This document shows, one piece after another, positions 7,634-13,138 of a stretch of DNA of 20,000 nt. A program made the position numbers and the translations under genes. Origin of the DNA: an uncultured virus (IMG/VR IMGVR_UViG_2660238585_000005) (taxonomy: Duplodnaviria > Heunggongvirae > Uroviricota > Caudoviricetes); IMG/VR virus record IMGVR_UViG_2660238585_000005, one strand, 5' to 3'. The notes beneath the pieces were generated by a model that had not been told where the DNA came from, did not search any database, and was given only the letters and a program-made list of their open reading frames with translations. Numbering within the stretch: position 1 is the first letter of the stretch; the number at the start of each line of letters is the position of its first letter.

Positions 7634-9006
7634 ATTTCTTTATTCAATTGTTCTTGTTCTTCTCTTAAATTTTTAACCCATGGGTGATTTGCAATTATAG
7701 TTTTATCGCTTACTATTCCTTTAGATTTAATACAATTTTCTATAGTTTCAGCTTCATTTATTTTTATATTTTTATTAAAAATTAGTTCTATATCTTCATC
7801 TTGATATATCCCTTGGTTAGTTTCCCTAAGATATGTGTTTACAAAATATATTAGTTCCTCAAAAGCTCTAGTAAATAAAACTTCTAATGAATTACACTTT
7901 AAGTCTATACCACTATATAAAAACTTTAGTGCTATACCACTGGGAGAACTTCCGAACTTATCTAAATCTTTATTTATACCTTGTCCACACTCATTTATAT
8001 CACGTTTTAATTGTTCATAATGTATTTTTATAGCATCTATATCCATATTAGGACTTAATGTTTCTACACTACCTTCAGATGCATCATCTATAGCTATGGC
8101 TCTATAGAAATTTAATTTATCCATAAAATCCCCTAAATTTTCTCCTCCATAACCTTTTAAAACGAATATTAAATTTTTTACTTCATCTATAAAATTTGCA
8201 ACATCACTTCTGCTTAAATCATAATTGTCTATTAAGCTTTTCACAAATTTTATATCGGACTTTTCAATTCGATTATTTTTAAAAGGTATAAATGGTATTT
8301 TACCCCATACCTCCCAAAATCCATCTTTTATATAATGGCCTTTTTCACCTTCAATGTTAAGATACTCTTCACTATCTAACATTATCTTATCTCCATCTTT
8401 TATATAGTGTTCTAGTTTATCTTTAAACCATAGCTCTATTTTAGTTATAGTTTTCTTCTTTGTACCTTCATAAGTTATTACATCATAGAATCTTATTAAT
8501 CTATCTATCTCATTATGTTTTCTACTTTTCCAAATAGGAATTATTTGTTCACTAGGGATAACCATTGTATCAAATTTACCTTTTTCATTTATATATATAT
8601 GTAGCCATCCGATTCCTTTATTACTAGCTTCATACCCTAACTCATTAAAAGTGTCTTGAAAATATTTACCTAAAGTATCTTTTACTTTATCTATATAATC
8701 TTCATTTTTTGATTTTAAAGTGTATGGTTTAGTTAATAAATATCCAACTTTTTCATCCACTAAGTTTTTATAAAAACCATGTGCTAATTTATTATTAGAT
8801 TTATATTTTAATTCTTCTTCTCCTCCACTTTTTAACGGTCTAGTTATTTTTCTACTTAATATATCATTCTCTACTCCATAGTATCTTTCTCCTGTAAGCA
8901 TGAGTTTTCTATTACTAGAATTTATAAATTCTTGAATTTCTTCCTCTAACCATTGTATAGTAGTCATTGATCCATCTGATTCTTCTGTCTTTCCAAACCA
9001 AAGCAT
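7621..9006 (-). CDS. Portal protein, SPP1 gp6-like
   Basis: NNKLAHGFYKNLVDEKVGYL, IPFIPFKNN, LIDNYD, SGIALKFLY, NHPWV motifs. Confidence 0.95.
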   Translation of the reverse strand: MLWFGKTEESDGSMTTIQWLEEEIQEFINSSNRKLMLTGERYYGVENDILSRKITRPLKSGGEEELKYKSNNKLAHGFYKNLVDEKVGYLLTKPYTLKSKNEDYIDKVKDTLGKYFQDTFNELGYEASNKGIGWLHIYINEKGKFDTMVIPSEQIIPIWKSRKHNEIDRLIRFYDVITYEGTKKKTITKIELWFKDKLEHYIKDGDKIMLDSEEYLNIEGEKGHYIKDGFWEVWGKIPFIPFKNNRIEKSDIKFVKSLIDNYDLSRSDVANFIDEVKNLIFVLKGYGGENLGDFMDKLNFYRAIAIDDASEGSVETLSPNMDIDAIKIHYEQLKRDINECGQGINKDLDKFGSSPSGIALKFLYSGIDLKCNSLEVLFTRAFEELIYFVNTYLRETNQGIYQDEDIELIFNKNIKINEAETIENCIKSKGIVSDKTIIANHPWVKNLREEQEQLNKEIKKP

Positions 9007-9020
9007 ATACTACCTCCTCA

Positions 9021-10235
9021 CTAAATCATTAACCTTAATCCACTACCTTTGCTCTCTGTATAAATTGCATATCTAAGTGCATCCAATACATCATCCCACA
9101 GCTTAATAGGTTCTCCCGTTGTTTTATTCCAAGCATACATAAAAATTTCTTTTTTAAATAAATCAGTATGTTCCTTTACTACCTTTAATTTATTAGTCTT
9201 AAATCCTTTTGCTACTACTTCAATTCCACTTAATACTGATTTATCAGCATTTTTAGCTCTTAGACCTTCCTTTTTAAATCTTGCTACATGTTCAGGTCTT
9301 GCACTATCACAATAAAAAATTATATTTCCATATTTACTTTTTATTGTTTTAGCTACATCTACCCAATAATCAATTTCTTCATATTGTCTTGCATACTCTC
9401 TTAATAAATATAAATTTTCATTATCATCTTTTCCTATAACAACTATAGAACCATGATGTTCATATCCCCAGTCAACACCTGCAAAAAATTTTACAAAATT
9501 TATATTTTTTAAATTACTTTCACTTATGTAATGAATATCTTTTCTAAAGTCTCTATAAACAATTCCTTCTGCAGATACCCATAATCCCTTTATATCTCTA
9601 TCATAAAACATTCCAGATGGAGTTGATGCTTTAATATTGTTTCTATATCTCTCACTTAAAAATGTATTCTCATCTAACTCATAGTGATAAGCTTGTATTA
9701 TTTTTCCATCTGCTTTATCTATAAAATTTGATTTTAGCCAGTGTTCTGGTTGATCTGGATTTGTATCTATTAATATTCGTGCTCCTTCACCAGAACATCT
9801 TGCTTTAATTTCATTAAAAACTTCTTCATTTGCCATAGTTCCTTCGTTTATATATGCTCCAAATGAAGTCATCCCTCTTATTCTTCCTAAATCATTTTTT
9901 TTTGAATGTCCAAAACAGCATACTTGAACTCCAAATAAAATAAATCTATTGTGTTTGTCAAACTTAAACTCAATATCATATTTATTGGTAAGTTCATTTA
10001 AAACATTTCTTTGAACTGATCCTAAATCAGCACCTGCTAAAATATATTGAGGTAATGTAATATTTAATTCATCAGCTATCTTTCTAACTCTTCTTAATTC
10101 ATATATAAATAGATCATTATCTAAAATAGTTTTTCCTGTTCTTTTAGCACCATGATTAATTAACATAAAAAAATCGTTGGTCATTGCAAAGTTCATTACT
10201 TCTAATTGTTTTTTATGATATAAATCATTTAACAT
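9021..10235 (-). CDS. terL: Terminase large subunit, PBSX family
   Basis: Walker A GAKRTGKT, YINE Walker B, DTNP coupling motif, GVDWG and DDVLDALRY nuclease motifs. Confidence 0.95.
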   Translation of the reverse strand: MLNDLYHKKQLEVMNFAMTNDFFMLINHGAKRTGKTILDNDLFIYELRRVRKIADELNITLPQYILAGADLGSVQRNVLNELTNKYDIEFKFDKHNRFILFGVQVCCFGHSKKNDLGRIRGMTSFGAYINEGTMANEEVFNEIKARCSGEGARILIDTNPDQPEHWLKSNFIDKADGKIIQAYHYELDENTFLSERYRNNIKASTPSGMFYDRDIKGLWVSAEGIVYRDFRKDIHYISESNLKNINFVKFFAGVDWGYEHHGSIVVIGKDDNENLYLLREYARQYEEIDYWVDVAKTIKSKYGNIIFYCDSARPEHVARFKKEGLRAKNADKSVLSGIEVVAKGFKTNKLKVVKEHTDLFKKEIFMYAWNKTTGEPIKLWDDVLDALRYAIYTESKGSGLRLMI

Positions 10236-10920
10236 TTATATGTTCCTCTAATTTCGTAAAATATTGATCTATTTTTTCTTCTCTATTTTTTTCATTATTA
10301 ACTATTCTAGACTTTAAGACTTCTATTCTAGCTTTTTGTTCTTCAGTAGCTAAATTAAAATTAGAATTAATCATATTGTCATATTGCTTAATTAAACTCC
10401 TTAATTCGCTCATTGCTCTACTTTGAGCATTAAGAAAAGAAGCTTGTCTATCCCATGCAAATTGAAGTTCATACTCTATCTTTTGAGATAACTCACTTTG
10501 TTCCTCTTTTTTTACTTCTCTTATTATTTCATCTTTTTCAGCAACATACATAATTTTTTGAGCTCTTATTATAGCCGCATACTGTATTACAATTTGTTCC
10601 CAAAGTATATCTATCTGTTTTTTTTCAACTATAGAATCCATTAACTCTAAAGTTTCATCTGGTAAGTATTTAGAAAAAAAGCCAAACTTTTCAGCATTTT
10701 TATTTCCTTTTGGGGCTCCATGTCCAACTGCATTTTTATTATTAAGAGGAGCTCCTCCAGTATTCTTAGGTATTCCCTTTCGCCGTTTTTCTTCAGCCCA
10801 TTTATATCTACTTATCCATGATTTCAGTGTATTTATATTAATTCCATGATTTTTACATATTTGTTTTTGTTTTATTCCATTTAGATAATCTATTTTAGCT
10901 AAATCCTTTAAATCTGCCAC
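10225..10920 (-). CDS. terS: Terminase small subunit (YjcR-like HTH)
   Basis: N-terminal HTH (NTLKSWISRYKW), tandem GAPxxNKNA motifs, WDRQASFLNAQSRAM. GTG start with GAGGTG RBS. Confidence 0.9.
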   Translation of the reverse strand: MADLKDLAKIDYLNGIKQKQICKNHGININTLKSWISRYKWAEEKRRKGIPKNTGGAPLNNKNAVGHGAPKGNKNAEKFGFFSKYLPDETLELMDSIVEKKQIDILWEQIVIQYAAIIRAQKIMYVAEKDEIIREVKKEEQSELSQKIEYELQFAWDRQASFLNAQSRAMSELRSLIKQYDNMINSNFNLATEEQKARIEVLKSRIVNNEKNREEKIDQYFTKLEEHINVK

Positions 10921-10946
10921 ATCACCACCTCAATTCTTTGTTAAAT

Positions 10947-10986
10947 AAAAAAGCCACTAATCTTTTTAAGATTTAGTGACTTTTTT
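10947..10986 (-). terminator. Intrinsic terminator 26 nt upstream of terS (possibly bidirectional)
   Basis: Minus strand AAAAAA-GTCACTAAATCTT-AAA-AAGATTAGTGGC-TTTTTT. Confidence 0.75.
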
Positions 10987-10994
10987 ATTACTAT

Positions 10995-11078
10995 GCATTT
11001 AAACATATGAAAACTTGTTGCAAAATAACAGTTTTAGTTTATACTCCATACCGCTATAGAGTTCTCAAAGAGCCGTAA
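10995..11078 (-). ncRNA. Candidate structured RNA element in the late leader
   Basis: Relatively GC-rich island. Hairpin ACTCTATA-GCGG-TATGGAGT (11062-11043) and a long bulged stem TAAAC-AAAACT-GTT/AAC-AGTTTT-GTTTA (11041-11000). Confidence 0.45.
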
Positions 11079-11090
11079 AGTTATAATATT

Positions 11091-11164
11091 TGATGAGAAT
11101 ATATGGTTTCGAACCATATTCTACTAATAAATTTAGCTGTTTTCCCATATTAAACTATATCCTC
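11091..11164 (-). tRNA. tRNA-like element or pseudo-tRNA with shortened anticodon arm
   Basis: GAGGATA TA GTTT AATATGGGA AAAC A GCTAA ATTTA TTAGT AGAA TATGG TTCGAAA CCATA TATTCTC A TCA. It has a 7-bp acceptor stem, a D arm with GG and a canonical T arm, but a 5-nt anticodon loop and TCA in place of CCA. Confidence 0.78.
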
Positions 11165-11215
11165 ATATATAGATTAAATACAAATCTATCTTAATTATTT
11201 TATATAAAATAATGT

Positions 11216-11284
11216 AATCGATAGTAAGTAGTTAATATTGTATAATTTCTTTATACTAATATAATATCATACTTACTATCAATT
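11216..11284. promoter_or_regulatory. 15-bp inverted repeat around the putative late promoter
   Basis: AATCGATAGTAAGTA (11216-11230) and TACTTACTATCAATT (11270-11284) are 14/15 complementary. A minus-strand TG-A-TATTAT extended -10-like element lies between them, just downstream of the late regulator gene. Confidence 0.5.
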
Positions 11285-11344
11285 TAATTCTTCACTTTTT
11301 CCGAAGTTTTTCTAAAAATATATACTCATTCAAGATTAAAATTT

Positions 11345-11830
11345 TTATCTACTATGATTTTCAAAATTATAAAGTGGAAAAATTATAGGTATAGATTTTT
11401 TTATCATATTTTCTCTTATGGAGTAATACGTATCTTTTCCTACATTCATTTTTAATCCATATACTTGCCAATTTTTTATATTTTGTATGTATCTAATATT
11501 AAACATTTCATTTTCTTCTTTATTAAAGTTATCTATAGCTCTCTCAACTCGTTTTATACTTACCTCTTTTTCATACTTTAATTGTTCTAATAACTGTAAC
11601 TTCTTCTGTTTTTGAATAATTTCTATTTCAACAGGTGAATTTATATTATCACTTTTTTGAACTTTTTCTAAATACTCAGTTGACCTAAAACCATTGTAAT
11701 CAAACTTTATAAATTCTATCTCTTCTTCTATACATATAACTTCTCTTTTTAAATCTTTAAATTGATAAAATAGACTTTCAACTTTATTAAATAAGTTATG
11801 TTTTTTTGATACTTTTACTGTAGTACTCAT
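11345..11830 (-). CDS. Late transcriptional activator, ArpU/RinA-like
   Basis: N-terminal VESLFYQFKDL, coiled coil, C-terminal sigma-region-4-like HTH (MFNIRY...WQVYGLKMNVGKDTYYSIR). It is the last gene before the packaging module. Confidence 0.75.
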   Translation of the reverse strand: MSTTVKVSKKHNLFNKVESLFYQFKDLKREVICIEEEIEFIKFDYNGFRSTEYLEKVQKSDNINSPVEIEIIQKQKKLQLLEQLKYEKEVSIKRVERAIDNFNKEENEMFNIRYIQNIKNWQVYGLKMNVGKDTYYSIRENMIKKSIPIIFPLYNFENHSR

Positions 11831-12598: not shown

Positions 12599-13138
12599 TT
12601 AACAATTAAATTTCTTATTATCTTTAATTTCTATTTTATATCTTTGCCTAAATAACCTTTTAGCTTCTATAGCTTGTTTTAAATTTCCTCGGCTAGCATT
12701 TAAGTACTCACATGCTTTATTAATGCTTTTTATCTCAATAATTTCATTTTTCAAAGTATCTGTAATTCTAACTTCCTTACATTTTATCCTTTCAATATTC
12801 TCTGGTACTTCAATCATATATCGTTTTTTGAATTTAATTTTATGTTTTATATATATAGTTATATCTGATCTTCTAATGTTTAAAAATTTACAACAATCAT
12901 TTAATGTATTAAACTCATAAACCTTATTTTCAACCTCATCTGTAACCCTCGCTCTATGATTATAACTTTTTTTAGGGCTTTTAATATTCCTATATGCTCC
13001 ACCCTCTCCATATCTAGCATCCTCTAAAATTATATGTTTAATTGCTTTTCCAATACTTAATTTAGGGTTTAGTATACAAGCTAGTAATGCCATATAGTTT
13101 TCTGTAAAGTCAAAATCATATGTATTGCTATATTTCAT
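12599..13138 (-). CDS. Putative DNA-binding protein with two NUMOD1-like HTH repeats
   Basis: Repeats ITD..N.V.EFNTLNDCCKFLNI and ITD..N.I.EIKSINKACEYLNA, each ending in K/Q-RY.IE. RBS AAGGAG. No nuclease motif seen. Confidence 0.65.
   Translation of the reverse strand: MKYSNTYDFDFTENYMALLACILNPKLSIGKAIKHIILEDARYGEGGAYRNIKSPKKSYNHRARVTDEVENKVYEFNTLNDCCKFLNIRRSDITIYIKHKIKFKKRYMIEVPENIERIKCKEVRITDTLKNEIIEIKSINKACEYLNASRGNLKQAIEAKRLFRQRYKIEIKDNKKFNC

What the first reader, a model, noticed from the sequence alone, without database searches (positions are those of the whole stretch)
11091..11164. tRNA mimic with intact elbow and acceptor stem but a 5-nt anticodon loop in the late leader
Seen: a 74-nt cloverleaf in which all four stems pair fully (two G-U pairs), with U8, A14, D-loop GG and T-loop TTCGAAA. 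The anticodon arm is 2 nt short: a 5-bp stem with AUUUA, or a 4-bp stem with AAUUUAU centred on UUU (Lys-like) but lacking U33. The 3' end is A-UCA, and flanking bases extend the acceptor stem to 9 bp. Retained pairing in such an AT-rich sequence suggests selection on shape rather than decoding. Inference: it could be a decoy for host anticodon nucleases or tRNA-targeting toxins, an RNase P/Z processing signal for the late transcript, or part of an antiterminator. It sits between the late activator and terS, so it would be made during lytic growth.
Basis: partly seen in the sequence, partly recalled or inferred. Interest (0 to 1): 0.78.

Follow-up and report, generated by a model that had tools for sequence, protein, structure and literature searches.

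The report
Prophage tRNA gene with broken anticodon loop
This is a real tRNA-derived gene in a prophage that has lost two bases from its anticodon loop and can almost certainly no longer read codons; relatives in other prophages are normal tRNAs, yet most copies of this family have lost the same part, which hints that the tRNA shape rather than decoding may be what is kept.

Summary
The cloverleaf exists as described, on the minus strand (11164 to 11091). ARAGORN calls it tRNA-Lys(UUU); Rfam's tRNA model does not find it. It lies between a RinA/sigma-like late regulator gene and terS in one of two tandem prophages. It is not an orphan. It belongs to a tRNA family fixed at this locus and always followed by a conserved 45-nt box and an intrinsic terminator. 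However, in a census seeded only on the box, 17 of 61 sites have a canonical loop. Of the rest, 36 have shortened arms, 3 a ~65-nt insertion in the loop, 4 a two-helix mini element, 1 nothing. All tRNA-derived lesions hit the anticodon arm. In the commonest truncated type the tRNA body varies less than neighbouring third codon positions and spacers. My odds: decaying relic 0.5; shape-selected processing or late-control element 0.35. No expression, processing or defence link was shown.

The parts
11091..11164 (-). tRNA-derived element, 'type A' of the family; 71 nt plus TCA. Acceptor 11164-11158 / 11101-11095; D arm 11155-11139; anticodon arm 11137-11123; T arm 11118-11102; discriminator 11094; TCA 11093-11091.
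   Evidence: Sequence; ARAGORN tRNA-Lys(ttt) 11092-11165 minus; family model R1 68.1 bits, E 4e-12; no RF00005 hit.
11123..11137 (-). Shortened anticodon arm, 15 nt instead of 17: GCTAA-ATTTA-TTAGT. The last loop base (11128) is A here and G in near-identical relatives and in the laid record.
   Evidence: A/G polymorphism in L002 and L003 and in genome.fa.
11169..11189 (-). AT-rich hairpin ATAGATT-TGTATTT-AATCTAT ending 4 nt before the tRNA 5' end. Other family types have a hairpin of different sequence at the same place.
   Evidence: Sequence; family contexts printed.
11037..11081 (-). Conserved 45-nt box ACTTTAC...GAGTATAAAC, starting 9 nt after the TCA end (12 nt after the discriminator). 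It is present after every tRNA or tRNA-like member of the family.
   Evidence: Low diversity in type B: 4 of 46 columns vary.
10944..10986 (-). Intrinsic-terminator-like hairpin GTCACTAAATCTT-AAAAA-GATTAGTGGC followed by TTTTTT. terS starts 26 nt after the T run.
   Evidence: Sequence. My script found a hairpin plus T run 43-86 nt after the box in 61 of 61 census loci. The consensus scanner listed no terminator here.
11345..11830 (-). 161-aa late-regulator candidate (Ltr/RinA-like, sigma-like).
   Evidence: phrog_36, E 1.4e-17. No Pfam or NCBIfam hit. Atlas look-alikes with DUF722, DUF1492, Sigma70_r4 and 'RinA family' (leads). 31% identical to the regulator upstream of the paralogous element.
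10225..10920 (-). terS, first gene after the terminator.
   Evidence: phrog_509, E 6.9e-89; NF040601 TerS, 182.7 bits.

Best explanation
The element is a genuine tRNA-derived gene: a decoding-dead allele of a prophage tRNA family whose intact members are tRNA-Glu(UUC), tRNA-Lys(UUU) and tRNA-Pro(UGG). The family occupies one fixed slot: late-regulator gene, hairpin, tRNA, conserved 45-nt box, 43-86 nt, intrinsic terminator, first late gene. In this copy the anticodon loop has lost two bases. It is either a 5-nt loop on a 5-bp stem, or a 7-nt loop without U33 on a 4-bp stem, so it cannot present an anticodon normally. Acceptor, D and T arms are intact. The RNA, if made, should still be recognised by RNase P at the 5' end, and by RNase Z and the CCA-adding enzyme at the 3' end (U74 instead of C74). 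These enzymes need only the acceptor/T-arm half of a tRNA (recalled knowledge; inferred, not shown here). I read it as a relic: decoding was dispensable in this host's prophage pool, the T-rich loop is prone to slippage, and this copy belongs to a very young clade that has had no time to decay further. Shown: origin, synteny, loop defect. Inferred: no decoding, processing, lack of a new function.
For: Homologues with a 7-nt loop and CCA occupy the same locus. The cloverleaf is supported across 14 canonical members: 97.9% of cells paired against 40-51% when partners are slid, and 5 pairs change on both sides. The window element matches the family model at 68.1 bits, below canonical members (80-100 bits) and above types C (60-64) and B (44-56). 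The only polymorphism inside the element among the type A copies is in the loop (A/G at 11128). A37/G37 variation would not be tolerated in a working tRNA-Lys(UUU) (recalled). The type A sites are almost identical: third codon positions of the neighbouring gene have pi 0.0037. Perfect stems here therefore say nothing about constraint. The tRNA is dispensable for the module: box and terminator occur without any tRNA at L319 and L359. The commonest truncated type B shows erosion. It has two acceptor mismatches and the polymorphisms T6>C and T6>G, which break a pair. Its RF00005 scores fall to 26-34 bits.
Against: Only 17 of 61 box-seeded sites keep a canonical loop, while 39 tRNA-derived sites keep acceptor, D and T arms but have a damaged anticodon arm. 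These fall into five different lesion classes: A, B, C, a 6-nt loop, and a ~65-nt insertion. None has a lesion elsewhere. In type B (23 distinct contexts), 8 of 58 tRNA-body columns vary. That compares with 36 of 88 third codon positions (Fisher p 4e-4) and 26 of 43 spacer columns (p 1e-6). Type C goes the same way but is not significant: 3 of 56 against 22 of 153, p 0.09. The insertion alleles keep a covarying anticodon stem (GATAA/TTATC against GGCAA/TTGTT) around a diverged insert. A pure relic model does not predict these patterns. It needs slippage bias, hitch-hiking with the conserved box, or cassette recombination to explain them.
Confidence: 0.5

Rival explanations
1. Shape-selected tRNA-like RNA. 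The family's conserved job does not need an anticodon. The L-shaped body (acceptor/T-arm helix plus elbow) serves as an RNase P/RNase Z cleavage handle. It may also act as the structured partner of the adjacent box in the transcript that crosses from the regulator gene into the late leader. In that role it would set RNA ends or stability, or help RNA polymerase read through the terminator in front of terS. Intact members decode as a bonus; truncated ones keep only the structural job.
For: 43 of 61 sites lack a canonical loop, and the tRNA-derived ones keep the other arms. The type B body is less variable than third codon positions, the upstream intergenic stretch (43 of 138 columns) and the spacer. 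The spacing is fixed: the box starts about 5-13 nt after the tRNA's 3' end, and a terminator lies 43-86 nt after the box in 61 of 61 sites. In type A and several canonical types the next ORF starts only 20-30 nt after the T run. That leaves no room for a promoter, so late expression must read through the terminator. Contigs from two RNA libraries run unbroken from terS across the terminator and box into the element's 3' part: X1 to 11096, X2 to 11147. These may be DNA carry-over.
Against: The module exists without the tRNA at 2 sites. Stem changes inside the truncated lineages are mixed: three preserve pairing (G4>A in C; G50>A and T64>C in B) and three break it (T6>C, T6>G, T63>C in B). The diversity contrast may reflect mosaic recombination of the regulator gene, whose second codon positions have pi 0.032, close to the body's 0.025. 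Counted as events, the arm remnant is not clearly faster than the body: by columns, Fisher p 0.065. No processing or expression data exist.
Confidence: 0.35
2. Decoy or pseudo-substrate for host tRNA-targeting defences (anticodon nucleases, acceptor-end toxins). The phage makes an uncleavable tRNA body that soaks up or blocks the effector.
For: The intact family members are Glu(UUC) and Lys(UUU). tRNA-Lys(UUU) is a known nuclease target; PrrC is named in passages of PMC10264068. Phage tRNAs that neutralise such systems appear in the listing (PMC11464382 and PMC11555353, abstract starts only). The anticodon changes quickly on otherwise identical bodies: UUU/UUC and UGG/UGA/UUC.
Against: Nucleases that read the anticodon loop would not bind an RNA without one. 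No tRNA-targeting defence or counter-defence gene was found among 35 ORFs of the record scanned against PADLOC. No experiment bears on it. The published cases are substitutions in a 7-nt loop, not loop loss; passages of PMC10264068 contain no 'decoy', 'truncated' or 'deletion'.
Confidence: 0.07
3. It still decodes: an unusual tRNA-Lys(UUU) with a 4-bp anticodon stem and the 7-nt loop AAUUUAU.
For: ARAGORN accepts this reading. All other arms are intact. AAA is expected to be a very common codon at 22-31% G+C (inference).
Against: U33 is replaced by A, and the arm is 2 nt short. The MFE fold prefers the 5-nt loop. Position 37 is A or G in otherwise identical copies. RF00005 does not score it.
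Confidence: 0.05
4. Chance cloverleaf in AT-rich DNA.
For: The fold z-score is only -2.06, and Rfam is silent.
Against: 68.1 bits against a model built from canonical homologues at the same locus. The first 15 bases are shared with all family members, and so is the flanking box.
Confidence: 0.01

Closest known systems
Phage-encoded tRNA genes, including those with anticodon-loop changes proposed to evade anticodon nucleases (PMC10264068, passages read; PMC11464382 and PMC11555353, listing and abstract starts only)
   Same: A tRNA gene carried by a phage. The family's intact members are Glu(UUC) and Lys(UUU), and the loop is the fast-changing part.
   Different: Published cases keep a 7-nt loop and decode. 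Here the loop is shortened (this copy), nearly deleted, or split by an insertion, in 39 of 61 sites. The gene sits at a fixed slot in the late-control region of temperate phages rather than in a tRNA cluster.
tRNA pseudogenes / degenerate tRNA genes
   Same: Descent from a normal tRNA, loss of a canonical anticodon loop, and a drop in covariance-model score.
   Different: The damage is confined to one arm in five separate lesion classes. In type B the rest of the molecule varies less than neighbouring neutral proxies.
Non-decoding tRNA-like RNAs used as processing or protein-binding modules: bacterial Y RNA (YrlA) tRNA-like domain, gammaherpesvirus 68 tRNA-like RNAs that drive RNase Z processing, mascRNA, phage T4 stable RNA species 1 and 2 (all recalled, no call)
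   Same: Acceptor, T and D arms mimic a tRNA while the anticodon arm is missing, altered or replaced. RNase P/Z recognition without decoding.
   Different: No sequence or Rfam match to any of them. Processing of this RNA is not shown. Here true tRNAs and tRNA-like forms are alleles of one locus.
Ltr/RinA-controlled late promoter region of Gram-positive temperate phages (PMC3152322, abstract; PMC3753634, passages)
   Same: An ltr-type regulator gene directly upstream of terS, with an intergenic region that holds a terminator and the late control site.
   Different: Those papers mention no tRNA in the interval ('tRNA' occurs 0 times in PMC3753634). They place the terS promoter after the terminator. 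Here the terminator abuts the terS ribosome-binding site.
rrn / lambda nut-type boxA antitermination signals (PMC13753749, passages)
   Same: A short conserved linear motif just after a structured RNA and upstream of a terminator. The window box contains GGCUCUUUGAGAAC. The paper gives UGCUCUUUAACA for E. coli and AUGAUCUUUGAAA for B. subtilis. An rrn leader of a related-family genome has AGAACUUUGAAAA.
   Different: The resemblance rests on a 6-9-nt core. Family types G and mini lack GCUCUU. NusB binding is untested. Lead only.

Membership tests
Functional tRNA (Rfam RF00005 / canonical cloverleaf) | 7-bp acceptor stem, 4-bp D stem, 5-bp T stem | tested here: met
   Read from the sequence; all pairs standard, two G-U; full-length match to family model R1.
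Functional tRNA (Rfam RF00005 / canonical cloverleaf) | Conserved elbow and core bases (U8, A14, G18 G19, T54 T55 C56, A58, G53-C61) | tested here: met
   Present in the sequence: D loop AATATGGGA, T loop TTCGAAA.
Functional tRNA (Rfam RF00005 / canonical cloverleaf) | 5-bp anticodon stem closing a 7-nt loop with U33 and a purine at 37 | tested here: not met
   15-nt arm. Either a 5-nt loop ATTTA, or a 7-nt loop AATTTAT with A33 on a 4-bp stem. Position 37 is A/G polymorphic.
Functional tRNA (Rfam RF00005 / canonical cloverleaf) | Score at or above the Rfam gathering threshold (29 bits) | tested here: not met
   No RF00005 hit at gathering, none at E<=10, none in the own-record search. Type A loci L045 and L067 also gave none. 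ARAGORN does call it.
Functional tRNA (Rfam RF00005 / canonical cloverleaf) | Processing, CCA end, aminoacylation | not testable with these tools
   The 3' end encodes A-TCA, not CCA. Contigs of RNA libraries cannot show ends or strand.
Prophage tRNA family at the regulator-box-terminator locus (defined here) | Sequence and structure homology to canonical members | tested here: met
   R1 68.1 bits, E 4e-12. The first 15 bases are identical to all 14 canonical members.
Prophage tRNA family at the regulator-box-terminator locus (defined here) | Synteny: phrog_36-type regulator upstream; conserved box and terminator downstream | tested here: met
   The paralogue in the same record has the same layout.
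   Type A has too little diversity: 0 of 55 body columns and 1 of 135 third positions vary. Type B: 8 of 58 against 36 of 88, p 4e-4. Type C: p 0.09. Recombination and relatedness are not controlled.
   Three pair-preserving and three pair-breaking changes.
   17 of 61 sites have canonical 7-nt loops with CCA, and the short arms differ from type to type.
boxA/nut-type antitermination site (for the adjacent box) | boxA-like core, structured RNA just upstream, terminator downstream | tested here: inconclusive
   A core like published consensus sequences is present in types A to F but not in G or mini. A terminator follows in 61 of 61 sites. A mismatch search in two genomes was at chance level.
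boxA/nut-type antitermination site (for the adjacent box) | Binding of NusB/S10 and terminator read-through | not testable with these tools

The most novel reading that the evidence does not exclude
This locus holds a family of phage RNAs in which a tRNA body, not an anticodon, is the conserved working part. The anticodon arm is repeatedly shortened, deleted or expanded by a ~65-nt insert, while acceptor, D and T arms persist. The element is hard-wired to a boxA-like motif and an intrinsic terminator in front of the late operon. On this reading the tRNA-shaped RNA plus box form an rrn-style processing and antitermination cassette. It decides whether transcription from the early side reads into terS. 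True tRNA-Glu/Lys alleles and anticodon-less alleles would then be interchangeable versions of that cis element.
Probability: 0.2. Interest if true: 0.8.

Novelty: new variant of a known kind. Interest (0 to 1): 0.5.

Why it matters
Taken alone, this is a broken phage tRNA gene, which is ordinary. The family around it is less so. The same slot in the late-control region holds normal tRNAs in some temperate phages and anticodon-less tRNA bodies in most of the sites sampled. If the body is kept by selection, phage tRNA genes can have a job that does not involve decoding, such as RNA processing, late-operon read-through or interference with tRNA-binding host factors. That bears on the old question of why phages carry tRNAs. 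It also matters for annotation: ARAGORN missed types B and C in 7 of 7 representative loci, and Rfam missed type A. Such elements are therefore invisible in routine prophage annotation.

Tried and rejected
- Rfam on the window and on 501 bases at E<=10: only chance-level snoRNA/miRNA-type hits, no tRNA.
- DNA search of GenBank phages with the window interval and with a canonical homologue: no family match. The latter gave 11 short hits of 32-40 bases in unrelated staphylococcal and mammaliicoccal phages.
- terS-seeded scan of genome contigs: 3 distant loci, none informative.
I went on with locus-based searches.
- I suspected an invertible segment between window and record at 11241-11300. It is a 1-base indel offset, not an inversion.
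- scan_promoters_terminators listed 0 terminators and only chance-level promoter-like sites: 5 found against 7.0 expected. The terminator is called from the sequence and my own script.
- RNA-library contigs: X1 covers 10106-11096 and X2 covers 10000-11147. The uncovered stretches (11097-11273 in X1, 11148-11446 in X2) and the contig ends are not interpretable. Contigs show neither strand nor ends, and DNA carry-over is possible. X4 and X6 cover only terS.
- Window box allowing 3 mismatches in two Firmicute genomes: hits no more frequent than the reversed control.
- 16S search in G001 and G002 found nothing, so their rrn leaders could not be compared. One rrn leader from G047 was read instead. 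The 16S there is partial, and no ITS follows it.
- Literature search for the box string: primers and unrelated hits only.
- PADLOC on 35 ORFs: no tRNA-targeting system.
- Diversity comparison for canonical groups D and F failed, because their upstream genes are not alignable. Groups G and A have too little diversity.
- Box-tail pattern in 401 sampled genomes of the class: 0 matches. In the 112 genomes of one family: 7 genomes, 8 sites, of which L375 (1 mismatch) is unrelated.

Full report
**Observation**

The minus strand from 11164 to 11091 reads as follows.
- Acceptor GAGGATA.
- TA at positions 8-9.
- D arm GTTT-AATATGGGA-AAAC.
- A at position 26.
- Anticodon arm GCTAA-ATTTA-TTAGT.
- Variable region AGAA.
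- T arm TATGG-TTCGAAA-CCATA.
- Acceptor 3' strand TATTCTC, discriminator A, then TCA.

Every stem pairs, with two G-U pairs. U8, A14, the GG of the D loop and the T loop TTCGAAA are present. Two flanking pairs can extend the acceptor helix to 9 bp. The anticodon arm has 15 nt instead of 17.

- ARAGORN calls tRNA-Lys(ttt) at 11092-11165 minus. It is the only call in the window and in the 63,206-base record at default settings.
- The MFE fold has the 5-bp/5-nt anticodon hairpin. It is only modestly better than shuffles: z -2.06, 7 of 200 as good.
- Rfam's tRNA model does not report the element at gathering, at E<=10 in a 501-base scan, or in the own-record search.

**Context**

The record is two tandem prophages. 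Each has a large serine recombinase, an ImmA-like protease, a repressor, a replication or recombination module, a phrog_36 regulator, packaging, head, tail and lysis genes.

In the window, the 161-aa ORF 11345-11830 hits phrog_36 'transcriptional regulator' (E 1.4e-17). It has no Pfam or NCBIfam hit. Atlas look-alikes carry DUF722, DUF1492, Sigma70_r4 or the name 'RinA family' (leads only). Next come the element and then terS at 10225-10920 (phrog_509, E 6.9e-89; NCBIfam TerS).

Published work on such regulators places them directly upstream of terS. The intergenic region is said to hold a terminator and the late promoter (PMC3152322, abstract; PMC3753634, passages). That paper never mentions a tRNA there.

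**A second copy and a family**

The own-record RF00005 search found a different element at G000:C1:25267-25331 (32.7 bits). It lies in the other prophage, again just downstream of a phrog_36 regulator. That regulator is 31% identical to the window's.
- The first 16 bases of this copy equal the window element's.
- Its anticodon arm is reduced to about 10 nt.
- It ends in ACCA.
- It is followed by the same conserved sequence as the window element.

Exact-word scans of IMG/VR recovered a family found only in isolate-derived proviruses. The seeds were the box, the 5' 15-mer and the box tail. The scans gave 29 distinct tRNA-region sequences.

ARAGORN results on 23 representative loci:

| Loci | Call |
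|---|---|
| 13 canonical | Glu(ttc) 10, Lys(ttt) 1, Pro(tgg) 1, 'Ser'(tga) 1 |
| 2 type A | Lys(ttt) |
| 7 types B and C | none |
| L254 | none |

RF00005 scores:

| Group | Bits |
|---|---|
| 8 canonical loci | 54.8-61.9 |
| type G | 37-38 |
| type C | 42-48 |
| type B | 26-34 |
| L254, spanning an insertion | 43.5 |
| type A | no hit |

Across 14 canonical sequences the cloverleaf is well supported. 97.9% of cells pair, against 40-51% with slid partners. Five pairs change on both sides: three in the anticodon stem and two in the T stem. The acceptor varies on its 3' strand only.

A covariance model built from these 14 gave the following scores:

| Group | Bits |
|---|---|
| canonical members | 80-100 |
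| window element | 68.1 (E 4e-12) |
| type C | 60-64 |
| type B | 44-56 |
| insertion allele L330 | 56 |

So the element is tRNA-derived beyond doubt.

**Census independent of the tRNA sequence**

A degenerate pattern for the box tail gave 61 sites in IMG/VR. Reading the upstream sequence of each:

| Class | Sites |
|---|---|
| Canonical 7-nt loop | 17 (Glu UUC 13, Lys UUU 2, Pro UGG 1, UGA 1) |
| Shortened arm | 36 (type A 4, B1 4, B2 18, C 8, F-type body with the 6-nt loop CTTTAT 2) |
| ~65-nt insertion inside the loop | 3 |
| 52-nt two-helix element resembling an acceptor/T-arm minihelix | 4 |
| No structured element | 1 |

In the insertion class the anticodon stem is kept by compensatory change: GATAA/TTATC in L330, GGCAA/TTGTT in L321 and L338.

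These sites come from related isolates and are not independent. The independent units are the lesion classes: A, B (B2 then B1), C, the 6-nt loop and the insertion. All five hit the 17-nt anticodon arm of a 73-nt molecule. By simple arithmetic that is about (17/73)^5 = 7e-4 if lesions fell at random. The loop and its 3' stem are runs of T that invite slippage, so this figure overstates the case (inference).

The anticodon also changes on otherwise identical bodies: L292 UUU against L308 UUC, and L335 UGG against L324 UGA against L342 UUC.

In species-representative genomes the box tail occurs in 7 of 112 genomes of one family, the family of the Romboutsia genome reached. It occurs in 0 of 401 sampled genomes of the class. 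The 8 sites in those 7 genomes:
- 3 canonical tRNAs (Glu, Glu, Pro);
- 1 insertion allele;
- 2 mini elements;
- 1 box without tRNA;
- 1 unrelated hit with a mismatch.

No short-arm allele was seen in those genomes.

**Is the body kept by selection?**

Type A is too uniform to say. Among 4 sites, 0 of 55 body columns, 1 of 15 arm columns and 1 of 135 third codon positions vary.

Type B, from box-seeded loci only, 23 distinct contexts:

| Region | Variable columns | pi | Fisher test against body |
|---|---|---|---|
| tRNA body without the arm remnant | 8 of 58 | 0.027 | - |
| Third codon positions of the regulator gene | 36 of 88 | 0.098 | p 4e-4 |
| Spacer after the box | 26 of 43 | - | p 1e-6 |
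| Upstream intergenic stretch | 43 of 138 | - | - |
| Arm remnant | 6 of 16 | - | p 0.065 |

Four of the six variable arm columns are one ATTT indel.

Type C (8 sites) shows 3 of 56 body columns against 22 of 153 third positions, p 0.09.

Points against selection:
- Second codon positions in the type B regulator gene have pi 0.032, close to the body's 0.025. That suggests mosaic alleles inflate the comparison.
- Stem substitutions within truncated lineages are three pair-preserving and three pair-breaking.
- Type B carries two acceptor mismatches.
- The module exists without a tRNA at two sites.

I therefore regard selection on the body as suggested, not shown.

**The module around it**

The tRNA or tRNA-like element is always followed within roughly 5-13 nt of its 3' end by a conserved 45-nt box (window 11081-11037). 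In type B, 4 of 46 box columns vary.

In 61 of 61 census sites a hairpin with a T run follows 43-86 nt after the box. Its stem sequences differ between types. In type A the terS start lies 26 nt after the T run, and in several canonical types the next ORF starts 20-30 nt after it. A promoter cannot fit there, so late genes must be reached by reading through this terminator (inference).

Contigs from two RNA libraries run from terS across the terminator and box into the 3' part of the element. This is weak evidence, because contigs carry no strand or end information and may derive from DNA.

The box contains GGCUCUUUGAGAAC. This resembles the boxA consensus strings quoted in PMC13753749 and the motif AGAACUUUGAAAA in an rrn leader of a related-family genome. 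Types G and mini lack that core, and a mismatch search was at chance level. I record it as a lead only.

**Mechanism**

Shown:
- descent from a tRNA;
- conserved slot and flanks;
- a defective anticodon loop.

Inferred:
- The RNA cannot decode. Position 33 is A or the loop is 5 nt, position 37 is A/G polymorphic, and the arm is short.
- It can still be cut by RNase P and RNase Z and receive CCA. These enzymes need only the acceptor/T-arm half and the elbow, and U74 instead of C74 favours RNase Z in Firmicutes (recalled, no call).

Two readings remain close.
- Relic, 0.5: decoding was dispensable, the loop slipped, and this young clade has not decayed further.
- Shape-selected, 0.35: the tRNA body is the working part, a processing handle or the structured partner of the box in late-operon read-through.

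The decoy idea has no support here. No tRNA-targeting system was found among 35 ORFs. Loop-reading nucleases should not bind a loop-less RNA.

**Known relatives and novelty**

No GenBank phage holds the family at the DNA level. The nearest described things are:
- phage tRNA genes with loop substitutions (PMC10264068, passages);
- ordinary tRNA pseudogenes;
- non-decoding tRNA-like RNAs (recalled);
- the Ltr/RinA late-control region.

I found nothing in print on a tRNA or tRNA-like element in that interval. The searches were made, and a word search of PMC3753634. Supplements were not read.

**Verdict**

The strong form of the interpretation, a purpose-built mimic, is not supported. The weak form, shape kept and decoding lost, remains open at the family level.

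Noticed in passing
G000:C1:25267-25331 (L025:1501-1565, minus), outside the window: A paralogous tRNA-like element in the other prophage of the same record. It has the same first 16 bases, an anticodon arm reduced to about 10 nt, and ends ACCA. RF00005 scores it 32.7 bits, but ARAGORN does not call it. It is followed by the same box and a terminator.
   Followed up: yes
window 11037-11081 (minus) and 10944-10986 (minus): A conserved 45-nt box and an intrinsic terminator between the element and terS. The terminator is present in 61 of 61 family sites, and terS starts 26 nt after the T run, so late genes seem to need terminator read-through. The box has a boxA-like core (GGCUCUUUGAGAAC). This is a lead only.
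   Followed up: partly
L330:750-885 (minus); L321, L338, L361: Alleles with a ~65-nt insertion inside the anticodon loop. Acceptor, D and T arms are intact. The anticodon stem covaries between the two insert variants (GATAA/TTATC against GGCAA/TTGTT). Whether the insert is an intron-like element or an added RNA domain is unknown.
   Followed up: partly
L297, L299, L322, L326 (IMG/VR); L362, L363 (species genomes): At the same slot, a 52-nt element of two coaxial-looking helices (6 bp + 6 bp, 7-nt loop, 9-nt bulge). It resembles an acceptor/T-arm minihelix. Descent from the tRNA is not established.
   Followed up: partly
L292/L308; L335/L324/L342: The anticodon switches on otherwise near-identical tRNA bodies: UUU against UUC, and UGG against UGA against UUC. 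The UGA form has no long variable arm, so it is unlikely to be a serine tRNA.
   Followed up: no
whole record G000 (63,206 bases): The 'provirus' is two complete tandem prophages (about 1-33.7 kb and 34.7-63.2 kb). Many related IMG/VR records are likewise double, each half carrying its own truncated allele.
   Followed up: partly
window 7851-11300 and beyond, compared with G000:C1:43207-63206: The window and the laid record differ at 100 positions, including the loop base 11128. A run of apparent differences at 11241-11300 is caused by a 1-base indel offset, so the laid record is a very close relative rather than the identical sequence.
   Followed up: yes
window 11220-11280: An 11-bp inverted repeat (GATAGTAAGTA ... 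TACTTACTATC) with a 39-bp AT-rich spacer, between the regulator gene and the element. It could be a terminator or an operator.
   Followed up: no
window 12599-13138 (minus): A 179-aa ORF with weak NUMOD1 / I-HmuI-NUMOD-like and HTH hits below the Pfam cut-offs. It may be a homing-endonuclease remnant in the replication module.
   Followed up: no
L357:1400-1650 (minus), L361: In some relatives the second half of the box is duplicated in tandem: two units of ACTC-loop-GAGTATAAA.
   Followed up: no
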